Part shown: positions 1,332 through 53,400 of the stretch, one piece after another | How positions within the stretch are numbered: the first letter of the stretch is position 1 | Layout: every line of letters begins with the position of its first letter | Origin: Octopus vulgaris | Lineage: Eukaryota | Length of the DNA stretch: 64,000 nt | Reading direction: 5' to 3' | Assembly: GCA_951406725.2 (NCBI GenBank) | Contig: OX597834.1 | Location: 25,048,001 to 25,112,000 of the forward strand | Made by a program: the position numbers and the translations under genes | The notes under the pieces: model-generated | What the model was told of the DNA's origin: nothing | What the model saw: only the letters and a program-made list of their open reading frames with translations | The model's database searches: none

Positions 1332-3093
1332 TCAATCATTCACCTGTCTGAAAGTACCTTTCCAACGGGAGATTGCCCATTTTGGATTACAAGCTTCGAG
1401 TGCCGAGTAACTTTCTGCCCTTTGCATGATAGAAGAAATTGGTTTGGTTAAATACGCTGGTAATATGATGAAATCTTCGTCAAATATCGTTGGTAAAGGC
1501 GGCAAAGAATTAATCCCCTTCGTATGAAAATCGCAATAAAACACATTAAAATGAAACGGATGAGAGTTCAGGGCAATATAGACTTTGGAGTTAAATACGA
1601 ATATTTTATCACCACTACTTAAATCGCAATGAAATGGTGCTGTTGTCGAATCTAAATCCGAATATTTAGTTGAGGTGATTTCTTTTGTTTTTTGAACTGG
1701 AAACCCTAGGTCTACGGTTCCTGGCGCCAACATGTTGTTTACGTCTCTTTTTCCTGCTAATCGTTTAGCCATAGCTATCTTAAACTTCAAGCCATCATCC
1801 AAATGGTTTAGTTGTACATCAGCGAGAGGCGGGTTGAATCCGATCAACTTTCCCTTTACATGTACAAATGTAACCTCTGGTAACTCTATCAGGTTTTCCA
1901 CAGAATTATGTGCCGATATCACTGTAAACGTACTGTACTCCGACTGCTGAGTGTTATGTACAAAACTGTAAGTAACGTTGTGAGGATCCACATTGTAAGA
2001 CATTGATGTGATTTTCTGCTCTTCATAATAGTCTGTTCGATCAAAGATATTAACAGAAAACTCTTTGGAATCACCGATGAAAATATCAAATATTACTGTC
2101 CAGTGATTATATCGGAAACTGTATCGATAAATACCCCAACCAATAATGAATCCGTACGATTGGATTGGGCTGATGCTATAGAGATAATTGACGAAACAGA
2201 AGAAACGAGAAGGAAGGACTTTGCTTGTTCTGTTTCTGATATTTCGTTTATCATTAATAAAACTGATTTTGTGTTCATTATTCGTTATGTTTATACAGAC
2301 GACACGGTTCTTGTCAACATAAGCAAGTATATGATCTTCAAATAAACCTATCAATTTACTTCTTTTCATGGCCGGAAGTTTAAATATTCCCCAGCTGTTA
2401 TTTTGAGGAGAAAATAGAGCTGTTTTGCCCGAAGATTCCTGTATCAAAATTGTCCATTGTATCCTGACTGACCCAGTTTTAATCGGGCAGCTGATCAGTG
2501 AAGTAGGTTTTTTCTTGAAAATTTTCTTTCTCTTCACAGGAAGATTTTCTCTTTTCCACATCTGAACTGAAGTGTTGCGTTCTGGAAACGTACGTATTAC
2601 TTCGCTGTAATGGGTTTGATTCCAATGCGAGATCATGCGAGCAACTACAGCGTGTTTTAATATCTTCGTTGCATCGGAACTCAGAAAGTTCTTGAATTGT
2701 TTTCGAGTCAATGAAAGAAGTTCGTGACTATATGGAAGCAACTTTTCAATGTTTTTCAAATATTTAAAGCAAATTTTACTCAAATCTTTCAGTTCGTAAT
2801 TTAAAGCGGTTTCCGTTGTACTTAAAACATTGTCAAAAGTTAGTTTTTGTAAGAGATATTGCTCACAATGGCATTCTAAGTGTTCTAGAAATATCATACG
2901 AGAAACTTGAAGCATAAATATTATATTAGACTCGTTTAACTCAATGGTTCCGGTGTACAAGTAGTTAAAAAATCCCTTGGCAGATTCAATATCTCCAAAC
3001 CAATGAGTGACATCAATTTCGTTGGATCGCATTTCCTGAAAACCCAAACTCAGCATTGATCTAAAGACAAGACTGGTTGCCACCAATACAGCT
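1332..3093 (-). CDS. BTB/POZ-BACK domain protein (kelch-like family, divergent C-terminus), terminal coding exon
   Basis: Long stop-free frame ending in TGA at 1332-1334. Minus-strand acceptor ttttttttttcttctcAG| (AG = 3095-3094), phase 2. The translation AVLVATSLVFRSMLSLGFQEMRSNEIDV...FFNYLYTGTIELNESNIIFMLQVSRMIFLEHLECHCEQYLLQKLTFDNVL...ALNYELKDLSKICFKYL matches BTB followed by BACK consensus. Confidence 0.9.
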
Positions 3094-3908
3094 CTGAGAA
3101 GAAAAAAAAAAGAATAACGAACATTTAGAGTGAGAATATAAAACATCTTCCAGTCGTGACCATCCCAGCTTTTCAGACACTATATGGATAATTAAAATGC
3201 TATTAAAAAAGAAATACTAACGAATTCTTCCATTTCTTTCAATGGAAGGATGCCATTCGATGGAAATTTAACTTATTTCTTACAGGTCATGACCACAATC
3301 TCTTTTGTTGCCCCAGGAAGTTATGCCTAAGTTACCCCTAAATCAGCCCTGATCAAATAAAACTGACTAGAAGTGGTTTCCAGTAGTGAACTGCTCGAGG
3401 TAGGTTAGTCTGCCTAGGAGTACACTACCCAAAATGTCTTTTATAAGCGATAATTTGGAGATGCGGTTCCTGTTTCTAGCAGATTAAGTAATTGCATGAA
3501 ATCTCCGTTAACCAGCAACAATAACTTAGCTCTAAATTAGACTGGCCAAATGCGCTCCAGTCGTAACCATCCCATCTTTTATCCAGAGAACTTAAGTGCA
3601 AATTATTGTCATTTCTATAGTTCTATACTTTTTAAAAGATTTTATCTATATTTCTATTCTTTTAAAGATTGTATGGCGGTGGGGAGGGGTGATTTGAAAG
3701 TGATTTGGCAGTTTCAAGAATGGTATACAACCCTGTAGACAACTTCTTGGACTTAGGCTGGCTGTGTCGTACGAAGTTTGCTTCCTGTTCAGTCCCCACC
3801 TAGGGCAAGGTGTCTTCTACAATAACCCCGAGCTGACTAAAGCCTTATGAGTAGATTTAGTAAACGGATTTTTAAAAAAGTTTATTTAGTGTGTGCGTGT
3901 GTACTTAC

Positions 3909-5233: not shown

Positions 5234-5398
5234 GGCGTAGGAGTGGCTGTGTGGTAAGTAGCTTGTTTACCGACCACATGGTTCAGGGTTCAGTCCCAAT
5301 ACGTGGCACCTTGGGCAAGTGTCTTCTACTATAGCCTCGGGCCGACCAAAGCCTTGCGAGTGGATTTGGTAGATGGAAACTGAAAGAAGCCCGTCGTA

Positions 5399-5455
<57 letters not shown>

Positions 5456-5667
5456 GTGTTTGTGTGTCTGTGTTTGTCCTCCCAACATCGCTTGACAACC
5501 GATGCTGGTGTGTTTATGTCCCCGTAACTTAGCGGTTCGGCAAAAGAGACCGATAGAATAAGTACTAGGCTTACAAATAATAAGTCCTAGGGTCGATTTG
5601 CTCGACTAAATGTGGTGCTCCAGCATGGCCACAGTCGAATGACAAACAAGTAAAAGAGTAAAGAGTA
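5234..5667 (+). mobile_element. SINE family B with an internal (TA)n(TG)n microsatellite and an (AAAGAGT)-like tail
   Basis: ggcgtaggagtggctgtgtggtaagtagcttg...gggttcagtccca...gaagcccgtcg[TA/TG]n...gcggttcggcaaaagagaccgatagaataagtactagg...aaacaagtaaaagag. Many homologs in the window, including decayed or partial ones near 11550, 18216, 19381, 47600, 59245 and 63537. Confidence 0.9.
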
Positions 5668-6312: not shown

Positions 6313-7060
6313 TCCTCGAATTGAAAGAGCAGAAACTGACCAGAAATGGGGCGTGTAAAACCATGAAACAAACGGGTAAGCAGCTTCCAGGAACCGTAGA
6401 AGAAATTGCTCTTGTTTGAGGGGTTAATTATAAAATAAACTGTAGTCTGAGGGATAAGTTTGGAGTCGTTGTGGGTTAGTTCATTATTCAATCAGGATAA
6501 GCTAAATGTTTTAGAATAAATAATTATGTATAAAGTCTGTTGGTTCGCGAGTTCTCTTTTTTATGGTTATTTTGATACTTCCTGTTGGAAAGTTCAAATC
6601 TGTCCATGTCAATTTTATTTTATTTATCATATTTTTATTCTATTTCTTTGAAATGGTTTTGTGAGAGGAAGAAAGGTAATACTCACACCAATTTTACGGG
6701 TTGGTGACAGGTGAGAGATGACCAGTAGGTCAGTTCTAATTTAATTATTATTTTAATAAGATTTTGAATGAGATTCTTATATTTAAAAATTAAAAATTTA
6801 AATAAACAAATGTCCTCCAAATTAGAAATAGAAATATTAGTGTGCAGTAATGAAAAGCAGCCCAATCTGGTAACCTTAATGTAATGTCCACGGTTCTCTA
6901 CCCACCACATGCTCCAATATGGCTGCCCATTGCTCCAGCTGACGCTGTGATTTAAGTTCTTACTTATAATATCGATCCGAAAAGTAAATGTTTGCATTAA
7001 ATTAAAATGACAATGAAGATTTATCAAATTGGGACATATTCCTATTATGGTTAGAGAGAG

Positions 7061-7406
7061 AAGCACTCCGTCGGTTACGACGACGAGGGTTCCGGTTGAT
7101 CCGATCAACGGAACAGCCTGCTCGTGAAATTAACGTGTAAGTGGCTGAGCACTCCACAGACACGTACACCCTTAACGTAGTTCTCGGGGATATTCAGCGT
7201 GACACAGAGAGTGACAAGGCCGGCCCCTTGAAATACAGGTACAACAGAAACAGGAAGTAAGAGTGAGAGAAAGTTGTGGTGAAAGAGTATAGCAGGGATC
7301 ACCACCATTTCGCTCAATAAACACTCACAACGCCCGGTCTGGGAATCGAAACCGCGATCCTACGACCGCGAGTCCGCTGCCCTAACCACTGGGCCATTGC
7401 GCCTCC
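7061..7406 (-). mobile_element. tRNA-derived SINE, family A (internally deleted copy)
   Basis: Head ggaggcgcaaTGGCCCAGTGGttagggcagcggactcgcggtcgtaggatcgcGGTTTCGATTCCcag with Pol III A/B boxes. Exact 14-bp TSD cctattatggttag (7041-7054 / 7407-7420). Homologs at 31308 and 47128. Confidence 0.9.
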
Positions 7407-14931: not shown

Positions 14932-15304
14932 CTGTGAAAATAGACAAAGAAAGACAAACGACTTGTGAGAATATGAAGTAGCTTCGTTTCTGAGAAAACT
15001 AGCGAAACAAGTGATCGTCTGCCAAAGCAGACGACAACTAGTTTATACAATAGAAACAAACGGAAGTTCTGAAAGTGAAATAAATAATTCTAAATTATTA
15101 GAGGTGATTTGATAATATCATAAAATTTACACATTTATTCATGTACAATATTGTATATTTCCTTGATGAGTCTTTCTTCACTACTTTTTTACTCAGGACG
15201 AAGTATGGTTTGCCGAGAAAAGTGTGTAGATGCAAAACATGTCTTAAGTTATAATAAATCTCTGAACGAGGTATAGGCAGTAACTGCACGACAATGTGAA
15301 ATAT

Positions 15305-15473
15305 AATGGTTGTATACTGTCAATCTAACACGAACGTGACAGTAGGGGGGTACACCACCGCTGTATAGCCCTGTGTCAAAGCCATCAGGAGGCGTCGATG
15401 CTTCCTAGGGCTATACAGCGGTGGTGTACCCCCTACTGTCACGTTCGTGTTAGATTGACAGTATACAACCATT
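15305..15473. repeat. Near-perfect 68/67-bp hairpin; internally truncated relative of the 28899 element
   Basis: 15305-15372 and 15407-15473 are reverse complements apart from one indel in a G/C run. The 34-nt loop gtgtcaaagccatcaggaggcgtcgatgcttcct matches 29121-29154. Confidence 0.9.
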
Positions 15474-15699
15474 CTATCGCCCCACCACCGTACATGTCTC
15501 TACGAGAGATTTAGAAATTTAGTATTTCTTAATGTGAAATATATTTGCCATCTAAATATGGCTGACCACTAAGGGTGGATGTTACTGTAGCTTGTAGCCC
15601 CAGGAGAACATCTTCTCCAGCTGGCTATTGACACACTTTCTGTGTCCTATCGGTATTTGCAAAGGGAAGCCATCTTTCCCATCGTCAACCTACGTGATA

Positions 15700-15744
15700 C
15701 GCACGAACTCGAGTTTCTGGGTATTGACCTGTCATCAGCGCACG
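15700..15744 (-). ncRNA. Minimal type I hammerhead-like motif, same family as 29019..29058
   Basis: Minus strand reads cgtgcg-CTGATGA-ca ggt caat acc ca-GAAAC-TCGA-GTT-cgtgcg. Stem I needs two G-U pairs; stem III loop CUCGAG is palindromic. Downstream sequence (tttgcaaa...ggacacagaaagtgtgtcaa...cctggggcta) is homologous to 29090-29160. Confidence 0.6.
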
Positions 15745-16323
15745 ACAATCACTGGTTTTCGATGGAAGAGGTCCCAATGCAAATACATATATCCTTTTTT
15801 CACTGACTTTTCATCACTGATCTTGAAAAAGTGTAAACAAGCAATAATAAACCTCTGAACGAGGTATAAACAGTAACTGCACGACAATGTTAAGTATATT
15901 TGCCATGTCTTAAGTTGTTTCTCCTGGTTACCGAAATCTTTATGATGGATCTTATGCAAACATATTTCTGCAGGTATGATTTTTTTCATTGAGTTTCATC
16001 GAAGTTCTTCCTGAGAGAGTTCAGGCCGGCTGCTAATAAAGCAACAACACTTGAGTTAAGAGTTCAGAGTATTTGTGAATATGTGGCTTAGTTGGTGGGT
16101 ATCGATTCACATAAGAATCTCAGATTGATAATTTCTGGAATGTCTCACAAATATTCACTGTGTCTCTTAATAGATTGGATTTGGAGAATCCGGTTTCCAT
16201 GAAACCGAGTATTTAAAGGTTTTGTGCAAATTTGTTCGTACATAACTGTATATATGATGATAGGCATAAACGAGGATTCACACTCAGGATACAAATGTAT
16301 GTATGTAAGTATGTATGTATGTA

Positions 16324-18876: not shown

Positions 18877-19165
18877 AGCACTCCGTCGGTTGTGACGACG
18901 AGGGTCCCAGCTGATATGATCAACGGAACAGCTTGCTCGTGAAATTAACGTGCAAATGGCTAATCACTCCACAAACACGTGTACCCTTAACGTAGTTCTC
19001 GGGGAGATTCAGCGTGACACAAAGTATGACAAGGCTGGCCCCTTTGAAATACAGGTACCAATCATTTTTGCCAGCTGAGTGGACTAGAGCAACGTGAAAT
19101 AAAATGTCTTGCTCAATGACACAACGCGCCGCCAGGAATTGAACTCACGACCTTACGATCCCGAG
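18877..19165 (-). mobile_element. SINE with a CORE-like head joined to the family A tail
   Basis: Head and core resemble the 28530 copy; the tail gtacctgtatttcaaagg...accgacggagtgct is shared with family A. Confidence 0.8.
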
Positions 19166-28268: not shown

Positions 28269-28487
28269 TTGTTTTATGTGAACGAATGAGAAGTGAGTGC
28301 TTAATACAAGATGTAGAGGATATGATTTTTCTATATTCAAGCTGAAACTGAAAGATTGTCATCCGACTCGTTTCACGTCACAGAGATTTGCAGTTTCGAC
28401 GAAATATCTCACGTCGCGAGACGAGCTCTCAGCTTCCGTTTTAATTAAAACTATATATATATATAGAAATATTGCATTTCTAAATAT

Positions 28488-28860
28488 CTCAGTGGTTAGA
28501 GCGTCGAGCTTACGATCGTGAGGCGTGGCTCAGTGGTTAGAGCGTCGAGCTTACGATCGTGAGGTTCTGAGCTCGAATCTCGGACCGGGCTGCGTGTTGT
28601 GTTCTTGAGCAAGACACTTTATTTTCACGTTGCTCCAGTTCACTCAGGTGTAGAAATGAGTTGCGACGTCACAGGTGCCAAGCTGTATCGGCCCTTGCCT
28701 TTCCCTTGGACAACATCGGTGACGTGGAGAGGGGAGACCGGTGTGCATGGGCGACTGCTGGTCTTCCATAAAACAACCTTGCCCAGACCTGTGCCTCAGA
28801 GGGTAACTCTCTAGGTGCAAACCCATGGTCAGTGTCTGACCGAAGGGAGTCACAACAACA
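28488..28860 (+). mobile_element. tRNA-derived CORE-like SINE with a duplicated 5' head
   Basis: ctcagtggttagagcgtcgagcttacgatcgtgagg occurs twice (28488, 28530). Central ttgagcaagacactttattttcacgttgctccagttcactcag resembles the CORE domain. (CAA)n tail and 11-bp TSD aaatatctcag (28482-28492 / 28862-28872). Confidence 0.85.
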
Positions 28861-28898
28861 AAAATATCTCAGAGCGATATAAGCAGTAGTGGTACGAT

Positions 28899-29221
28899 AG
28901 AGTAGTTGTATGCTGTCAGCTTAATGTGACAGTCCCATGAAGAGAATCACACCACTGCTATTTAGCCCACTGCTATTTAAACTTAGATAAGCACCTCCAG
29001 CTAGCAGTCCATGCTATTCCAGACTGATGACGAGCAAGACTCAGAAACTAGTCTCTGGGTGCAGGCTTAGCTGGGTGGGGGTGCTTGTCTCCCCCTTGCA
29101 AACATAAGGACACAGGAAATGTGTCAAGGCCGACAGGAAGCCTTGATGCTTCCTAGGGCTAAATAGCGGTGGTGTGATTTCCTTTATGGGACTGTCACAT
29201 TAAGTTGACAGTATACAACTA

Positions 29222-29225
<4 letters not shown>
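28899..29225 (+). mobile_element. 327-bp non-coding element with 70-bp inverted arms enclosing a hammerhead motif (non-autonomous Penelope-like derivative)
   Basis: Arm 28899-28968 (agagtagttgtatgctgtcagcttaatgtgacagtccca...tttagccc) is a near reverse complement of 29156-29225. The hammerhead is at 29019-29058. Confidence 0.7.
29019..29058 (+). ncRNA. Minimal type I hammerhead ribozyme motif (Penelope-like-element type)
   Basis: ccaga-CTGATGA-c gag caaga ctc a-GAAAC-TA-GTC-tctgg: perfect 5-bp stem I, canonical core, 3-bp stem II, palindromic CUAG stem III, GUC cleavage triplet (cut after 29053). Confidence 0.75.
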
Positions 29226-29320
<95 letters not shown>

Positions 29321-31307: not shown

Positions 31308-31686
31308 GGAGGCGCAATGGCCCAGTGGTTAGGGCAGCGGACTCGCGGTCGGAGGATCGCGGTTTCGATTCCCAGACCGGGCATTGTGAGTGTTTATTGA
31401 GCGAAGACACCTAAAGCTCCACGAGGCTCCGGCAGGGGATGGTGGTGAACCCTGCTGTACTCTTTCGCCACAACTTTCTCTCGCTCTTTCTTCCTGTTTC
31501 TCTTGTACCTGTATTTCAAAGGGCCAGCCTTGACACACTCTGTGTCACGCTGAATCTCCTCGAGAACTACGTTAAGGGTACACGTGTCTGTGGAGTGCTC
31601 AGCCACTTGCACGTTAATATCACGAGCAAGCTGTTCCGTTGATCGTATCAGCTGGGACCCTCATCGTCGCAACCGACGGAGTGCTC
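31308..31686 (+). mobile_element. tRNA-derived SINE, family A, flanked by a 70-bp direct repeat
   Basis: Same head and body as the 7061 and 47128 copies. Flanks 31237-31306 and 31694-31763 match at 67/70 nt. Confidence 0.9.
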
Positions 31687-31814
31687 CTATCTATATTGTC
31701 CATCAGATGATAATTCATTAGTCAACTTCTATTTGATAGTTCCTTTAGAATTAGTCATTAATGCATCATCTGGAAACACTTTAATGTTAATATTGCAATA
31801 TATATATATATATT

Positions 31815-40879: not shown

Positions 40880-41109
40880 TACTCTTTTACTCTTTTACTT
40901 GTTTCAGTCATTCGACTGTGGCCATGCTGGAGCACCGCTTTTAGTCGAGGAAACCGACCCAAGGACTTATTCTTCGTAAGCCTAGTACTTATTCTATCGG
41001 TCTCTTTTGCCGAACCGCTAAGTTACGGGGACGTATATACACCAGCATTAGTTGTCAAGCGATGTTGGGGGGACAAACACAAATACACAAACACATACAC
41101 ACACAAACA

Positions 41110-41192
<83 letters not shown>

Positions 41193-47127: not shown

Positions 47128-47505
47128 GAGGCGCAATGGCCCAGTGGTTAGGGCAGCGGACTCGCGGTCATAGGATCGCGGTTTCGATTCCCAGACCGGG
47201 CGTTGTGAGTGTTTATTGAGCGAAAACACCTAAAGCTCCACGAGGCTCCGGCAGGGGAGGGTGTGATCCCTGCTGTACTCTTTCACCACAACTTTCTCTC
47301 ACTCTTACTTCCTGTTTCTGTTGTACCTGTATTTCAAAGGGCCGGCCTTGTCACTCTCTGTGTCACGCTGAATATCCCCGAGAACTACGTTAAGGGTACA
47401 CGTGTCTGTGGAGTGCTCAACCACTTACACGTTAATTTCACGAGCAGGCTGTTCCGTTGATCGGATCAACCGGAACCCTCGTCGTCGTAACCGACGGAGT
47501 GCTTC
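47128..47505 (+). mobile_element. tRNA-derived SINE, family A
   Basis: Near-identical to the 7061 and 31308 copies over head and tail. Confidence 0.9.
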
Positions 47506-48923: not shown

Positions 48924-50209
48924 GTGCGGATACTGAAAAGTAACCGGAGACTTTCTCTGTGGGACAAGCCTGTATAATTTCAGGCTTCGGCCGTCAGAAG
49001 CCACTTGATGTGACCTTCAGACGGCGTCGGGCGAAGTCGTTCAATCGTATGGTGCGTCTTTGTTTTGCGGTGCTTCTTCCCTGTTCGTATATATTTTGCG
49101 ATGGCTGAAACGAAGGAACAGAGTGCTTCCGTGAAATTCTGCTCTCTGCTGGCGAAAACGGCAGCCGAAACAATTGTCATGTTTCAAACAGCTTACAAGG
49201 ACGCTGCCATGAGCAAAACACACGTTTATGGGTGGTTTTCACGCTCTTGGAATGTTCACTTGTCGCTTGAAGACCAACCTCATTCAGGGCGAACGTCGTC
49301 CTCGCGAACGAATGCAAACATCACGAAAATTCGTGAACTGATCTTGGAGGACCGCTGCTGAACAACTGACGAACTTGTTGATATGACTGATGTGTCCTAG
49401 ATCTCCTGCTAAAGAATTTTGAGCGAGGAATAGCGAATGGAAAGAACTGCAGTAAAATTTGTGCCTCGCTTGCTCACGGAAGATCGAAAGTAGTCACGAC
49501 TGAATGCGTGTCGTGAACTGAAAGAACAGATGGGAGGTGATCTGGACTTTTATTCAAAGGTCATCACTGGTGACGAAAGGTGATACTACGACTACGACCC
49601 GGAAACGAAGCAGCAATTAAGACAATAGAAGCATTCAATGTCAACACACAAAAAAAAAAAAAAATGTGCGTCAAGTGAAGTCCAACGTCAAAACGATGTT
49701 GATTTGTTTCATCGCTGCGAAGGGATTTGTCCACACAGAATTTGTTCCTCCTGGTCAAACTGTTAACCAGACATTTTACTTGGCAGCTCTGAAGCATTTG
49801 CGAGGCACAGTAAGACGAAAACGCTGCAACCTGTGGCAAAGTGGAGAATGCTGGGTTTATCACGACAATGTCCCTGCGCACACCGCTTTGAGTTTGAGAC
49901 AGTTTTTGCCAAAAATGGCATGACCCACATTACTCCCCCCCCCCATATTCACACGATTTTGCTCCCTGCCTTTTTTTTTCTGTTCCCCCGAATGAAGACA
50001 ATCTTTATAAGAAAACATTTTACAGATGTGGAAGAGGTGAAGAAAAAATATGACGAAGGCGTTAAACGTCATCACTTCGCAACAGTTCTGGCACTGCTTC
50101 GAACAACGGAAAATGGCGAATACTCTGATGGCGATAAAAGTGTAAACATGTAAAACTAAGTGAATAAAATAATATCGCTAAATTCCGGTTTCTTTTGAGT
50201 GTCCACTCA
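48923..50209 (+). mobile_element. Full-length (1287 bp) defective mariner (Tc1/mariner) transposon
   Basis: 26-bp imperfect TIRs (48923-48948 / 50184-50209, 20/26 matches) flanked by TA. Transposase pseudogene starts at ATG 49101 with motifs VKFC..LAKTAAET, SGR, FVPRLL, ITGDE, YDPETKQ, HDNVPAH, PYS...FLFPRMK. Several stops and frameshifts. Confidence 0.92.
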
Positions 50210-52105: not shown

Positions 52106-52545
52106 GGCGTAGGAGTGGCTGTGTGGTAAGTAGCTTGCTTACCAACCACATGGTTCCGGGTTCAGTCCGACTGCGTGGCACCTTGGGCAAGTGTCTTCTA
52201 CTATAGCCTTGTGAGTGGATTTGGTAGACGGAAACTGAAAGAAGCCCGTCGTATATATGTATGTATATATATATATGTGTGTGTGTGTGTGTATGTGTGT
52301 GTGTCTGTGTGTCTGTGTGTCTGTGTATGTTTGTGTGTCTGTGTTTGTACCCCCAACATCGCTTGACAACCGATGCTGGTGTGTTTACGTCCCCGTAACT
52401 TAGCGGTTCGGCAAAAGAGACCGATAGAATAAGTACTAGGCTTACAAACAATAAGTCCCGGGGTCGATTTGCTCGACTAAAGGCGGTGCTCCAGCATGGC
52501 CACAGTCAAATGACTGAAACAAGTAAAAGAGTAAAGAATAAAAGA
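52106..52545 (+). mobile_element. SINE family B
   Basis: Homolog of 5234..5667. Confidence 0.9.
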
Positions 52546-52845
52546 TTTACCAAAATTACATTAAAATATCTTGAAATACTAAAGAGTGAATAAATAGAAA
52601 CATTATTATTTCTAAATCTCTCAAGACGTTTCCTAGGTGCTAAACAACAATAACACTCGTCCCATCCAGGACTACCACATTATCTTGGCAAATAGTCTTT
52701 ACTTTAAAGTACTGTTACTGAATGTCTCTCTTGAGAGATTTGGAAATAATGTTTCTATTCATTAGACCAGTGGCTGTGTCTCACTTTGAAAATTATATAT
52801 TTTCGAACGGGAGTTCAGCATGGCTGTCTAGCTTGAGCAGCTACT

Positions 52846-52886
52846 CTATGCTGAGAAAGTGCAATAACCCAGAAACCGGTCCACAG
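52846..52886 (+). ncRNA. Degenerate minimal hammerhead-like motif enclosed by an 18-bp inverted repeat
   Basis: ctatg-CTGAGAA-agtgcaataaccca-GAAAC-CG-GTC-cacag. Flanked by tatattttcgaacgggag (52796-52813) and its exact reverse complement (52920-52937). Confidence 0.5.
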
Positions 52887-52979
52887 ATGTTGCTTTGTGC
52901 TGGATGGGAGTATTGACCTCTCCCGTTCGAAAATATAAAGACACAGATATCGTGTCGTATAGACAGCTGGAAACGACAT

Positions 52980-53400
<421 letters not shown>

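What the first reader, a model, noticed from the sequence alone, without database searches (positions are those of the whole stretch)
28899..29225. 327-bp hammerhead cassette sealed inside 70-bp copy-specific inverted arms
Seen: arms 28899-28968 and 29156-29225 fold back around the best-preserved hammerhead (ccaga/tctgg stem, CUGAUGA, GAAAC-UA-GUC). The relative at 15305-15473 has arms that match each other almost perfectly but differ clearly from these arms (ctaacacgaacgtgacagtagggggg vs cttaatgtgacagtcccatgaagag). The relative at about 15545-15744 has the hammerhead but no arm. Inference: the inverted arm is not a fixed DNA-transposon TIR. It looks like an inverted copy of the element's own 3' end made at insertion, as known for Penelope-like tail-to-tail structures. 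The element would be misclassified as a MITE but may be a ribozyme-bearing RNA element.
Basis: partly seen in the sequence, partly recalled or inferred. Interest (0 to 1): 0.75.

Follow-up and report, generated by a model that had tools for sequence, protein, structure and literature searches.

The report
Penelope-footprint retrozyme copy mimicking a MITE
This is one copy of a very abundant 355-base non-coding repeat with a hammerhead-ribozyme motif; its back-to-back arms and a one-sided tail (hidden here by a later SINE insertion) match the known footprint of Penelope-type retrotransposons, which likely pasted it in from RNA, so it is a new example of a known kind and self-cutting is untested.

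Summary
The 70-bp arms (64/70 paired) and the hammerhead motif are real, but 28899-29225 is not the whole element. The left arm continues into a 53-54-nt tail that the right arm lacks; a SINE with an 11-bp target duplication later split that tail, so the insertion runs from about 28465 to 29225. The relative at 15306-15530 has the same tail on its right side only and a 13-bp target duplication. Two more relatives indicate a non-coding unit of about 355 nt with one type I hammerhead. Public contigs show two fixed outer ends and many inner junctions, and show that the arms are subfamily-specific, not copy-specific. Fixed terminal repeats are absent, so a MITE is rejected. Best reading (0.8): a non-autonomous retrozyme-type RNA copied by a Penelope-like enzyme from two start sites, one per target strand, joined head-to-head. 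Each half of this copy holds sequence the other lacks, which argues against simple fold-back. The layout is published for Penelope elements, retrozymes are published, and this scan has already noted the same layout many times elsewhere in this genome. Cleavage, RNA circles and the partner enzyme are untested.

The parts
28452..28465 (.). (TA)7 run at the left end of copy E1; likely target site
   Evidence: last base shared with the tail end
28465..28492 (-). E1 distal tail (outer fixed end, site B), ends in a small AGAAAT/ATTTCT hairpin
   Evidence: 22 of 26 columns alike to the E2 tail end
28482..28492 (+). left copy of the SINE's 11-bp target duplication
   Evidence: the 11-mer occurs only twice in the window
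28493..28861 (+). SINE inserted later into the E1 tail (tRNA-type head by eye, A-rich end, 36-bp duplication at its 5' end)
   Evidence: 11-bp duplication; very high contig depth over the part laid, 28760-28855; ARAGORN finds no tRNA gene; class assigned from recalled A/B-box motifs
28862..28872 (+). right copy of the SINE's 11-bp target duplication
28873..28898 (-). E1 proximal tail, continuous with the left arm and absent from the right arm
   Evidence: 28862-28898 is 27 of 39 columns alike to the E2 tail, 13 of 5000 shuffles; whole tail without the SINE 41 of 56, 0 of 10000 shuffles
28899..28968 (-). E1 inverted arm (copy of the unit's 3' region)
   Evidence: 64 of 70 paired with 29156-29225
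28952..28979 (+). 13-nt direct duplication (28952-28964 / 28967-28979) across the head-to-head junction
28969..29225 (+). E1 forward, 5'-truncated copy of the unit (257 nt), ending at the inner fixed end (site A)
   Evidence: folds at z -5.3 on this strand and -1.7 on the other (40 shuffles each); stop codons in all 3 frames
29018..29059 (+). type I hammerhead motif; predicted cut after 29053; palindromic helix III; C opposite A at the base of stem II
   Evidence: palindrome-preserving double change at 29049/29050 in family contigs
29226..29260 (.). (CT)n then (TA)8 at the right end of E1
15306..15530 (+). relative E2: short inverted arm (to 15372), forward copy 15372-15475, tail 15476-15530 on the right only; 13-bp target duplication 15293-15305 / 15531-15543
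   Evidence: the 13-mer occurs only twice in the window
15251..15903 (-). relative E3: partial tandem (about 1.2 units, period 355) with hammerhead at 15700-15744, interrupted by E2; 13-bp target duplication 15238-15250 / 15904-15916
52589..52979 (+). relative E4: about 38-nt inverted arm made of tail sequence (52589-52626) plus about one permuted unit (52629-52979) with a decayed hammerhead at 52845-52887

Best explanation
The feature is one insertion (about 28465-29225, later split by a SINE) of a high-copy, non-coding repeat of about 355 nt with a type I hammerhead motif, built of two back-to-back partial copies that a Penelope-like reverse transcriptase/endonuclease likely made from the repeat's RNA. 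Shown: the two halves start at two fixed points of the unit 53-55 nt apart (sites A and B) and meet at their truncated 5' ends; which half carries the tail varies (left in E1, right in E2); inner junctions vary; two relatives have 13-bp target duplications. Inferred: the enzyme nicks both strands of an AT-rich target about 13 bp apart, each free 3' end primes a cDNA on the RNA (one at site B, one at site A), and the two cDNAs are joined by short homology and repair. In E1 the site-B cDNA ran about 124 nt and the site-A cDNA 257 nt. Predicted: the hammerhead cuts mainly as a dimer through its palindromic helix III and would release unit-length, possibly circular, RNA.
For: One-sided tail in E1 and E2 on opposite sides (41 of 56 columns, 0 of 10000 shuffles); E1's right flank shows no such match. 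The SINE's 11-bp duplication and the rest of the tail were found upstream of the SINE, where a later insertion would put them. Each E1 half holds sequence absent from the other (53-54-nt tail; 187 nt with the hammerhead). Contig ends pile up at both sites with mixed flanks: behind 15529, 15 contigs in X2 and 20 in X4 (agreement 0.53, 0.50); behind 15477, 10 contigs in X4, flank starting in TA repeats (24 of 200 rows shown); behind 29223, 27 contigs in X1. Junctions vary: of the 15 of 38 joints shown plus 8 rows of table 5c, 7 distinct ones run from the arm into the forward copy (arm 44-70 nt, forward 89-225 nt) and 6 are strand switches inside the unit (direction not given). Period 355 in E3; in E3 and E4 the tail runs on into the next hammerhead. 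Stem I pairs 6/6, 6/6 and 5/6 with different letters in E1, E3, E4, and helix III is a different palindrome in each. Published match: inverted 5'-truncated copy and one-sided tail (PMC8557442; PMC3846280); cleavage and extension of both target strands and two RT start sites bounding the tail (PMC11167929).
Against: No partner enzyme identified: no genome is held and none of 17 window ORFs scanned (of 159 listed) matched an RT or GIY-YIG family. No array with two hammerheads lies in this window, and one search showed no tandem 'goes back' joint among the rows shown. Continuity from tail to next hammerhead is shown for E3 and E4, not for the E1/E2 subfamilies (one 17-letter contig end in X11 resembles the E3 spacer). 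The tail (53-55 nt) is longer than the published 30-40 bp. E1's target duplication cannot be read inside TA repeats. E4's right end is not at site A, E4's arm starts about 8 nt beyond site B, and E3 ends short of E2's site B. E1's and E2's arms end at the same inner position (within 1 nt), and 4 of the 7 arm-to-forward contig joints end within 2 nt of it (partly forced by the reference). The hammerhead has C opposite A where most have G10.1-C11.1 and scores no Rfam hit. In PMC11167929 cleavage was not needed for insertion in vitro.
Confidence: 0.8

Rival explanations
1. E1 and E2 are truncated end-repeats (pseudo-LTRs) of a protein-coding Penelope element rather than copies of a free 355-nt retrozyme; same insertion mechanism, different parent RNA.
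For: Penelope pseudo-LTRs carry such hammerheads with palindromic helix III and most occur as single truncated motifs (PMC4209133). E1 and E2 never show what lies beyond site B or more than 55 nt upstream of the hammerhead core. An earlier scan note (e1-8669850) reached this reading for another family.
Against: In relatives E3 and E4 the tail leads straight into the next hammerhead within 355 nt; E1, E3, E4 have stops in all 3 sense frames and align with many non-triplet gaps; one contig end beyond site B resembles the E3 spacer.
Confidence: 0.2
2. The inverted arm arises by self-priming or fold-back of one cDNA or of an antisense RNA, not by two separate priming events.
For: Self-priming was proposed for Penelope inverted junctions (PMC3846280). 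E2's short arm lies wholly inside its long half. The 13-nt duplication at E1's junction shows local re-annealing.
Against: In E1 the arm carries a 53-54-nt tail absent from the forward copy, and the forward copy carries 187 nt absent from the arm, so neither can be a copy of the other. There is no palindrome centred on E1's junction.
Confidence: 0.1
3. A MITE of a cut-and-paste transposon with long terminal inverted repeats that diverged by subfamily.
For: E1 and E2 both show about 70-bp arms with nearly the same inner end; E1's arms can be read as flanked by TA; a mariner-type transposase remnant lies at 49014-49920.
Against: One-sided tail, 13-bp duplications in E2 and E3, no arm in E3, an arm made only of tail sequence in E4, partial tandem structure, and variable junctions in contigs.
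Confidence: 0.02

Closest known systems
Endonuclease-positive Penelope-like elements: Adineta Pen2a (PMC3846280; 12 passages read), PLE layouts in PMC8557442 (12 passages), Poseidon_Ac (PMC11167929; parts 1-2 of 4)
   Same: Partial tandems, inverted 5'-truncated copy joined head-to-head, tail on one end only, target duplication of several bases, AT-rich or microsatellite targets, hammerhead upstream of the RT start sites.
   Different: No RT/GIY-YIG reading frame; unit only 355 nt; tail 53-55 nt against 30-40 (31 in Pen2a); duplications 13 bp against 8-10 in Adineta.
Metazoan non-LTR retrozymes (PMC7229834; part 2 of 6 and 12 passages; bioRxiv 10.64898/2026.07.22.740005; part 1 of 5 and 9 passages)
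   Same: Non-coding unit in the 150-450-bp range (mussel 350-390 bp), one type I hammerhead per unit, strongly self-paired RNA, long target duplications; proposed to derive from Penelope-like elements.
   Different: Copies here are sub-unit to 1.2 units with inverted arms rather than long tandem arrays. 'Tail' has 0 occurrences in the 2026 preprint and 'inverted' occurs only in a reference title. Expression, circles and cleavage are shown for coral and axolotl in the parts read, not here.
Type I hammerheads of Penelope pseudo-LTRs (PMC4209133; parts 1-2 of 4)
   Same: Tiny palindromic helix III predicted to work as a dimer; an extra base after A9.
   Different: Also an extra A before G12 in all 3 relatives (C opposite A in E1 and E3) and a short stem II (3 bp in E1). 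A U-U mismatch at this position is known in active natural hammerheads (PMC3088659, passages); I saw no C-A case in the passages read.
MITEs (definition recalled, not from a call)
   Same: Short, non-coding, high copy, long inverted repeats at apparent ends.
   Different: Ends are asymmetric, arms variable or absent, no constant short target duplication.

Membership tests
Penelope-like element insertion (non-autonomous) | Inverted 5'-truncated copy joined at the 5' end | tested here: met
   E1, E2, E4 (3 of 4 window copies); contig joints
Penelope-like element insertion (non-autonomous) | Tail extension at one end only | tested here: met
   E1 left, E2 right; 53-55 nt, longer than the published 30-40
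Penelope-like element insertion (non-autonomous) | Partial tandem forming a pseudo-LTR | tested here: met
   E3, 60-nt repeat 88% alike, period 355 after subtracting E2; not present in E1 itself
Penelope-like element insertion (non-autonomous) | Target duplication of several bases in AT-rich DNA | tested here: inconclusive
   13 bp for E2 and E3; unreadable for E1 (TA repeats on both sides); none seen for E4
Penelope-like element insertion (non-autonomous) | Autonomous RT + GIY-YIG partner sharing the RT start region | not testable with these tools
   No genome held; no such ORF among 17 scanned of 159 listed in the window
Autonomous Penelope-like element | Own RT and GIY-YIG reading frame | tested here: not met
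   Stops in all 3 sense frames of E1, E3, E4; no ORF of 90 aa or more over E1
Metazoan non-LTR retrozyme | Non-coding unit of 150-450 nt with one type I hammerhead | tested here: met
   355-nt period in E3, about 351 nt in E4; inferred for the E1 subfamily by homology
Metazoan non-LTR retrozyme | Tandem copies with two or more hammerheads | tested here: inconclusive
   None in this window; contigs too short to show arrays
Metazoan non-LTR retrozyme | Self-cleavage and linear/circular unit-length RNA | not testable with these tools
   Only contigs are served for these runs; they cannot show ends, strand or circles
Canonical type I hammerhead | Core C3 U4 G5 A6 N7 G8 A9, G12 A13 A14 A15.1, U16.1 H17 with paired stem I | tested here: met
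   E1 and E3; E4 has G8 changed to A
Canonical type I hammerhead | Paired 10.1-11.1 directly next to the core | tested here: not met
   C opposite A in E1 and E3, A opposite A in E4
MITE | Fixed terminal inverted repeats at both ends of every copy | tested here: not met
   One-sided tail; E3 has no arm; E4 arm is tail-only; variable joints
MITE | Short constant target duplication of a DDE transposase family | tested here: not met
   13-bp duplications in E2 and E3; E1's apparent TA on the left is inside the element

The most novel reading that the evidence does not exclude
A Penelope-type enzyme dimer copies a circular 355-nt ribozyme RNA from two fixed sites at once, one cDNA per nicked target strand, and tends to re-insert at the start site of older relatives (E2 sits in E3 at E3's own site A); E1 is a natural proof of two separate priming events. 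The family's hammerhead is an undescribed active variant with C opposite A at the base of stem II that cuts only as a dimer.
Probability: 0.3. Interest if true: 0.55.

Novelty: new member of a known kind. Interest (0 to 1): 0.32.

Why it matters
It is a practical warning: short Penelope-pasted retrozyme copies look like MITEs and can be mislabelled, and the one-sided tail is the quick test. The copy also gives a clean argument on an open point of Penelope biology, how the inverted arm is made: each half holds sequence the other lacks, which needs two priming events and fits the two start sites and two-strand extension seen in vitro (PMC11167929). It adds insertion-site support to the proposed retrozyme-Penelope link. 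None of this is a new class, and the scan already holds younger and larger examples from this genome.

Tried and rejected
Whole genome: none held, so no genome-wide copy census or partner search. Rfam: no hammerhead hit; the top matches come from the flanking microsatellite. Exact 22-base pattern in metagenome and viral contigs: 0 matches each. Look-ups of earlier notes by sequence and near this place: nothing, so I could not tell whether this is the same family as the 355-364-nt families noted elsewhere. Sequencing runs: no RNA holder listed; two runs guessed to be RNA hold contigs of the E2 subfamily (199 and 9 laid), which shows nothing about transcription. A-to-I editing or selection for the arm hairpin: 5 of 6 arm mismatches are G-U on the + strand, but chance gives this at 0.11, and family contigs show the changes fall on both arms and include C-to-T changes; rejected. 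Palindromic target with TA duplication: rejected once the tail showed these bases are inside the element. Pair counting on alignment A1 used a mis-registered structure string; its low scores are disregarded and the stems were recounted per copy. Genome-style repeat scan of the whole window was swamped by microsatellites. Contig joints left out of the count as unclear: one SINE-only, 28899/29189, 28903/29217, 28941/29167, 28941/29190 (listed in both tables), 28918/29202, 29073/29108, 29128/29183. Literature searches listed no paper on cephalopod retrozymes; PMC7229834 has 0 occurrences of octopus or cephalopod and PMC13282606 has 0 of ribozyme. No supplements were read; repeat libraries and supplementary lists may already hold this family.

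Full report
Observation. The hammerhead motif is at 29018-29059 with the predicted cut after 29053. Rfam does not detect it. The DNA is microsatellite-rich and of animal type; earlier scan notes call the genome octopus-like, which I did not test. No whole genome is held.

The element is larger than reported. The reverse complement of the DNA left of E1's left arm matches the DNA right of E2's right arm (27 of 39 columns, 13 of 5000 shuffles), while E1's right flank does not. The match stops at 28862, at the end of a SINE. Upstream of that SINE the same 11 bases recur (28482-28492 and 28862-28872) and the tail continues to about 28465, next to (TA)7. With the SINE left out, E1's tail is 53-54 nt and matches E2's tail at 41 of 56 columns (0 of 10000 shuffles). 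So E1 is a tail plus 70-nt arm in inverted orientation (about 124 nt), joined to a 257-nt forward copy. E2 is the mirror case: a short arm without tail, and a forward copy with tail, inside a 13-bp target duplication.

The unit. E3 is a partial tandem with period 355 once E2 is subtracted, has its own 13-bp duplication and no inverted arm. E4 is about one permuted unit preceded by a 38-column inverted piece of tail (33 of 38 alike). In both, the tail runs on into the next hammerhead. E1, E3 and E4 have stops in all three sense frames and fold better than shuffles (z -5.3, -4.0, -5.3; for E3 and E4 the opposite strand folds equally well, z -4.3 and -4.9; 40 shuffles each). Stem I pairs 6/6, 6/6 and 5/6 with different letters, and helix III is a different palindrome in each copy. 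In family contigs positions 29049 and 29050 change at nearly equal depth in all 4 runs, which would keep the palindrome if they change together (linkage is inferred from depth). All three have an extra base after A9 and an A before G12; E4's core is decayed.

Beyond the window. Contigs of six public runs were laid (X1-X4, three organism labels; X2, X4, X11, X17). The family is very abundant: summed depth reaches 10^5-10^6 in the deepest DNA runs where single junction contigs have about 10-80, though the tool warns this is no copy number. E2's arm sequence is shared by more than a thousand contigs at 95% or better in each DNA run, and contigs continue upstream of E2 into sequence like E1's 29090-29119 (60 and 45 contigs), so E2 is a truncated member of the same family and the arms are subfamily-specific. 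Contig ends with mixed flanks cluster at site B (15529: 15 and 20 contigs) and site A (15477: 10 contigs; 29223: 27 contigs) (24 of 200 and 24 of 1140 rows shown). Inner junctions vary: 7 distinct arm-to-forward joints with arms of 44-70 nt and forward parts of 89-225 nt, and 6 strand switches inside the unit whose direction the tool does not give (15 of 38 joints shown plus 8 rows of table 5c; eight rows, seven distinct joints, set aside as unclear). Each joint rests on one or two contigs per run.

Mechanism. Shown by sequence: two fixed outer ends 53-55 nt apart, variable inner ends, head-to-head geometry, 13-bp duplications, AT-rich targets. Established for Penelope-like elements: partial tandems, an inverted 5'-truncated copy and a one-sided tail (PMC8557442; PMC3846280); in vitro, a Poseidon protein cleaves and extends both target strands and starts at two internal RNA sites that bound the tail (PMC11167929). 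Inferred: both nicked strands primed cDNA on this RNA, one at site B and one at site A, and the cDNAs were joined; the 13-nt duplication at E1's junction fits repair by re-annealing but could be a later slip. E1 discriminates between models because each half holds sequence the other lacks, so fold-back of one cDNA cannot give it. Arm divergence of 6 in 70 suggests E1 is older than E2 (2 in 72), in line with the later SINE. The hammerhead is predicted to work as a dimer (two-copy fold of 29017-29059 -23.4 kcal/mol against -7.3 for one copy; PMC4209133), but activity, RNA circles and the partner are untested.

Against. No partner could be sought beyond the window. No two-hammerhead array was seen. 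Continuity of the unit is shown for E3 and E4 only. The tail is longer than published. E4's right end does not sit at site A and is unexplained; the site-B end differs between subfamilies. Arms of E1 and E2 and several contigs end near the same inner point, next to a strong hairpin at about 29123-29155, perhaps a pause site; this is what gives the MITE look.

Comparison and verdict. It works like a Penelope-like insertion and is built like an animal non-LTR retrozyme (PMC7229834; bioRxiv 10.64898/2026.07.22.740005). Membership in the first is met on layout, with the partner untested; in the second on unit size and motif, with arrays inconclusive and expression untestable; MITE membership fails. 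Six literature searches (listings and abstract starts only, apart from the papers cited as read) listed no description of cephalopod retrozymes; supplements and repeat libraries were not seen. Earlier notes of this scan describe the same layout, with two fixed start points, for several 277-596-nt families in this genome; I took the retrozyme reading and the two-start lead partly from them and tested it on this window's copies.

Noticed in passing
window 15293-15543: E2 inserted into its older relative E3 at the position of E3's own inner start site (the 13 duplicated bases are the last 13 before E3's site A). One case only; may hint at homing to relatives.
   Followed up: partly
window 29031 and 29043; 15731 and 15718: C after A9 and A before G12 are kept in two diverged subfamilies (62% alike), giving C opposite A at the base of stem II; E4 also keeps the A.
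   Followed up: partly
window 29109-29155: Most conserved part of the family: a small GACACA/TGTGTC hairpin followed by two overlapping, competing stems; arms often end just downstream.
   Followed up: partly
window 28488-28564: The SINE has an exact 36-bp duplication of its head, 41 bp apart, and its 5' end shares 5 bases with the target duplication; a second partial copy lies at 19062-19160 (minus).
   Followed up: no
window 11662, 23292, 24533, 35200, 41460 (+) and 19817 (-): Further CUGANGA...GAAA hammerhead-like motifs from a loose pattern scan, unrelated in sequence to this family; stems not checked.
   Followed up: no
window 52965-52985: E4's right end stops about 100 nt before site A and runs into a long TA repeat; unexplained.
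   Followed up: no
window 1332-3179 (-): 615-codon open frame without introns encoding a BTB/POZ plus BACK protein.
   Followed up: partly
window 49014-50153 (+): Broken mariner-type transposase remnant (HTH_48 and Transposase_1 matches).
   Followed up: partly
window 29222-29285: (CT)n(AT)n(AG)n self-complementary microsatellite that draws spurious microRNA-precursor matches in Rfam.
   Followed up: no
window 5397-5643, 7052-7308, 31439-31695, 40886-41169, 47263-47505, 52252-52535: Other dispersed repeats of 240-280 bp, 86-98% alike in opposite orientations; likely common SINE-type repeats.
   Followed up: no
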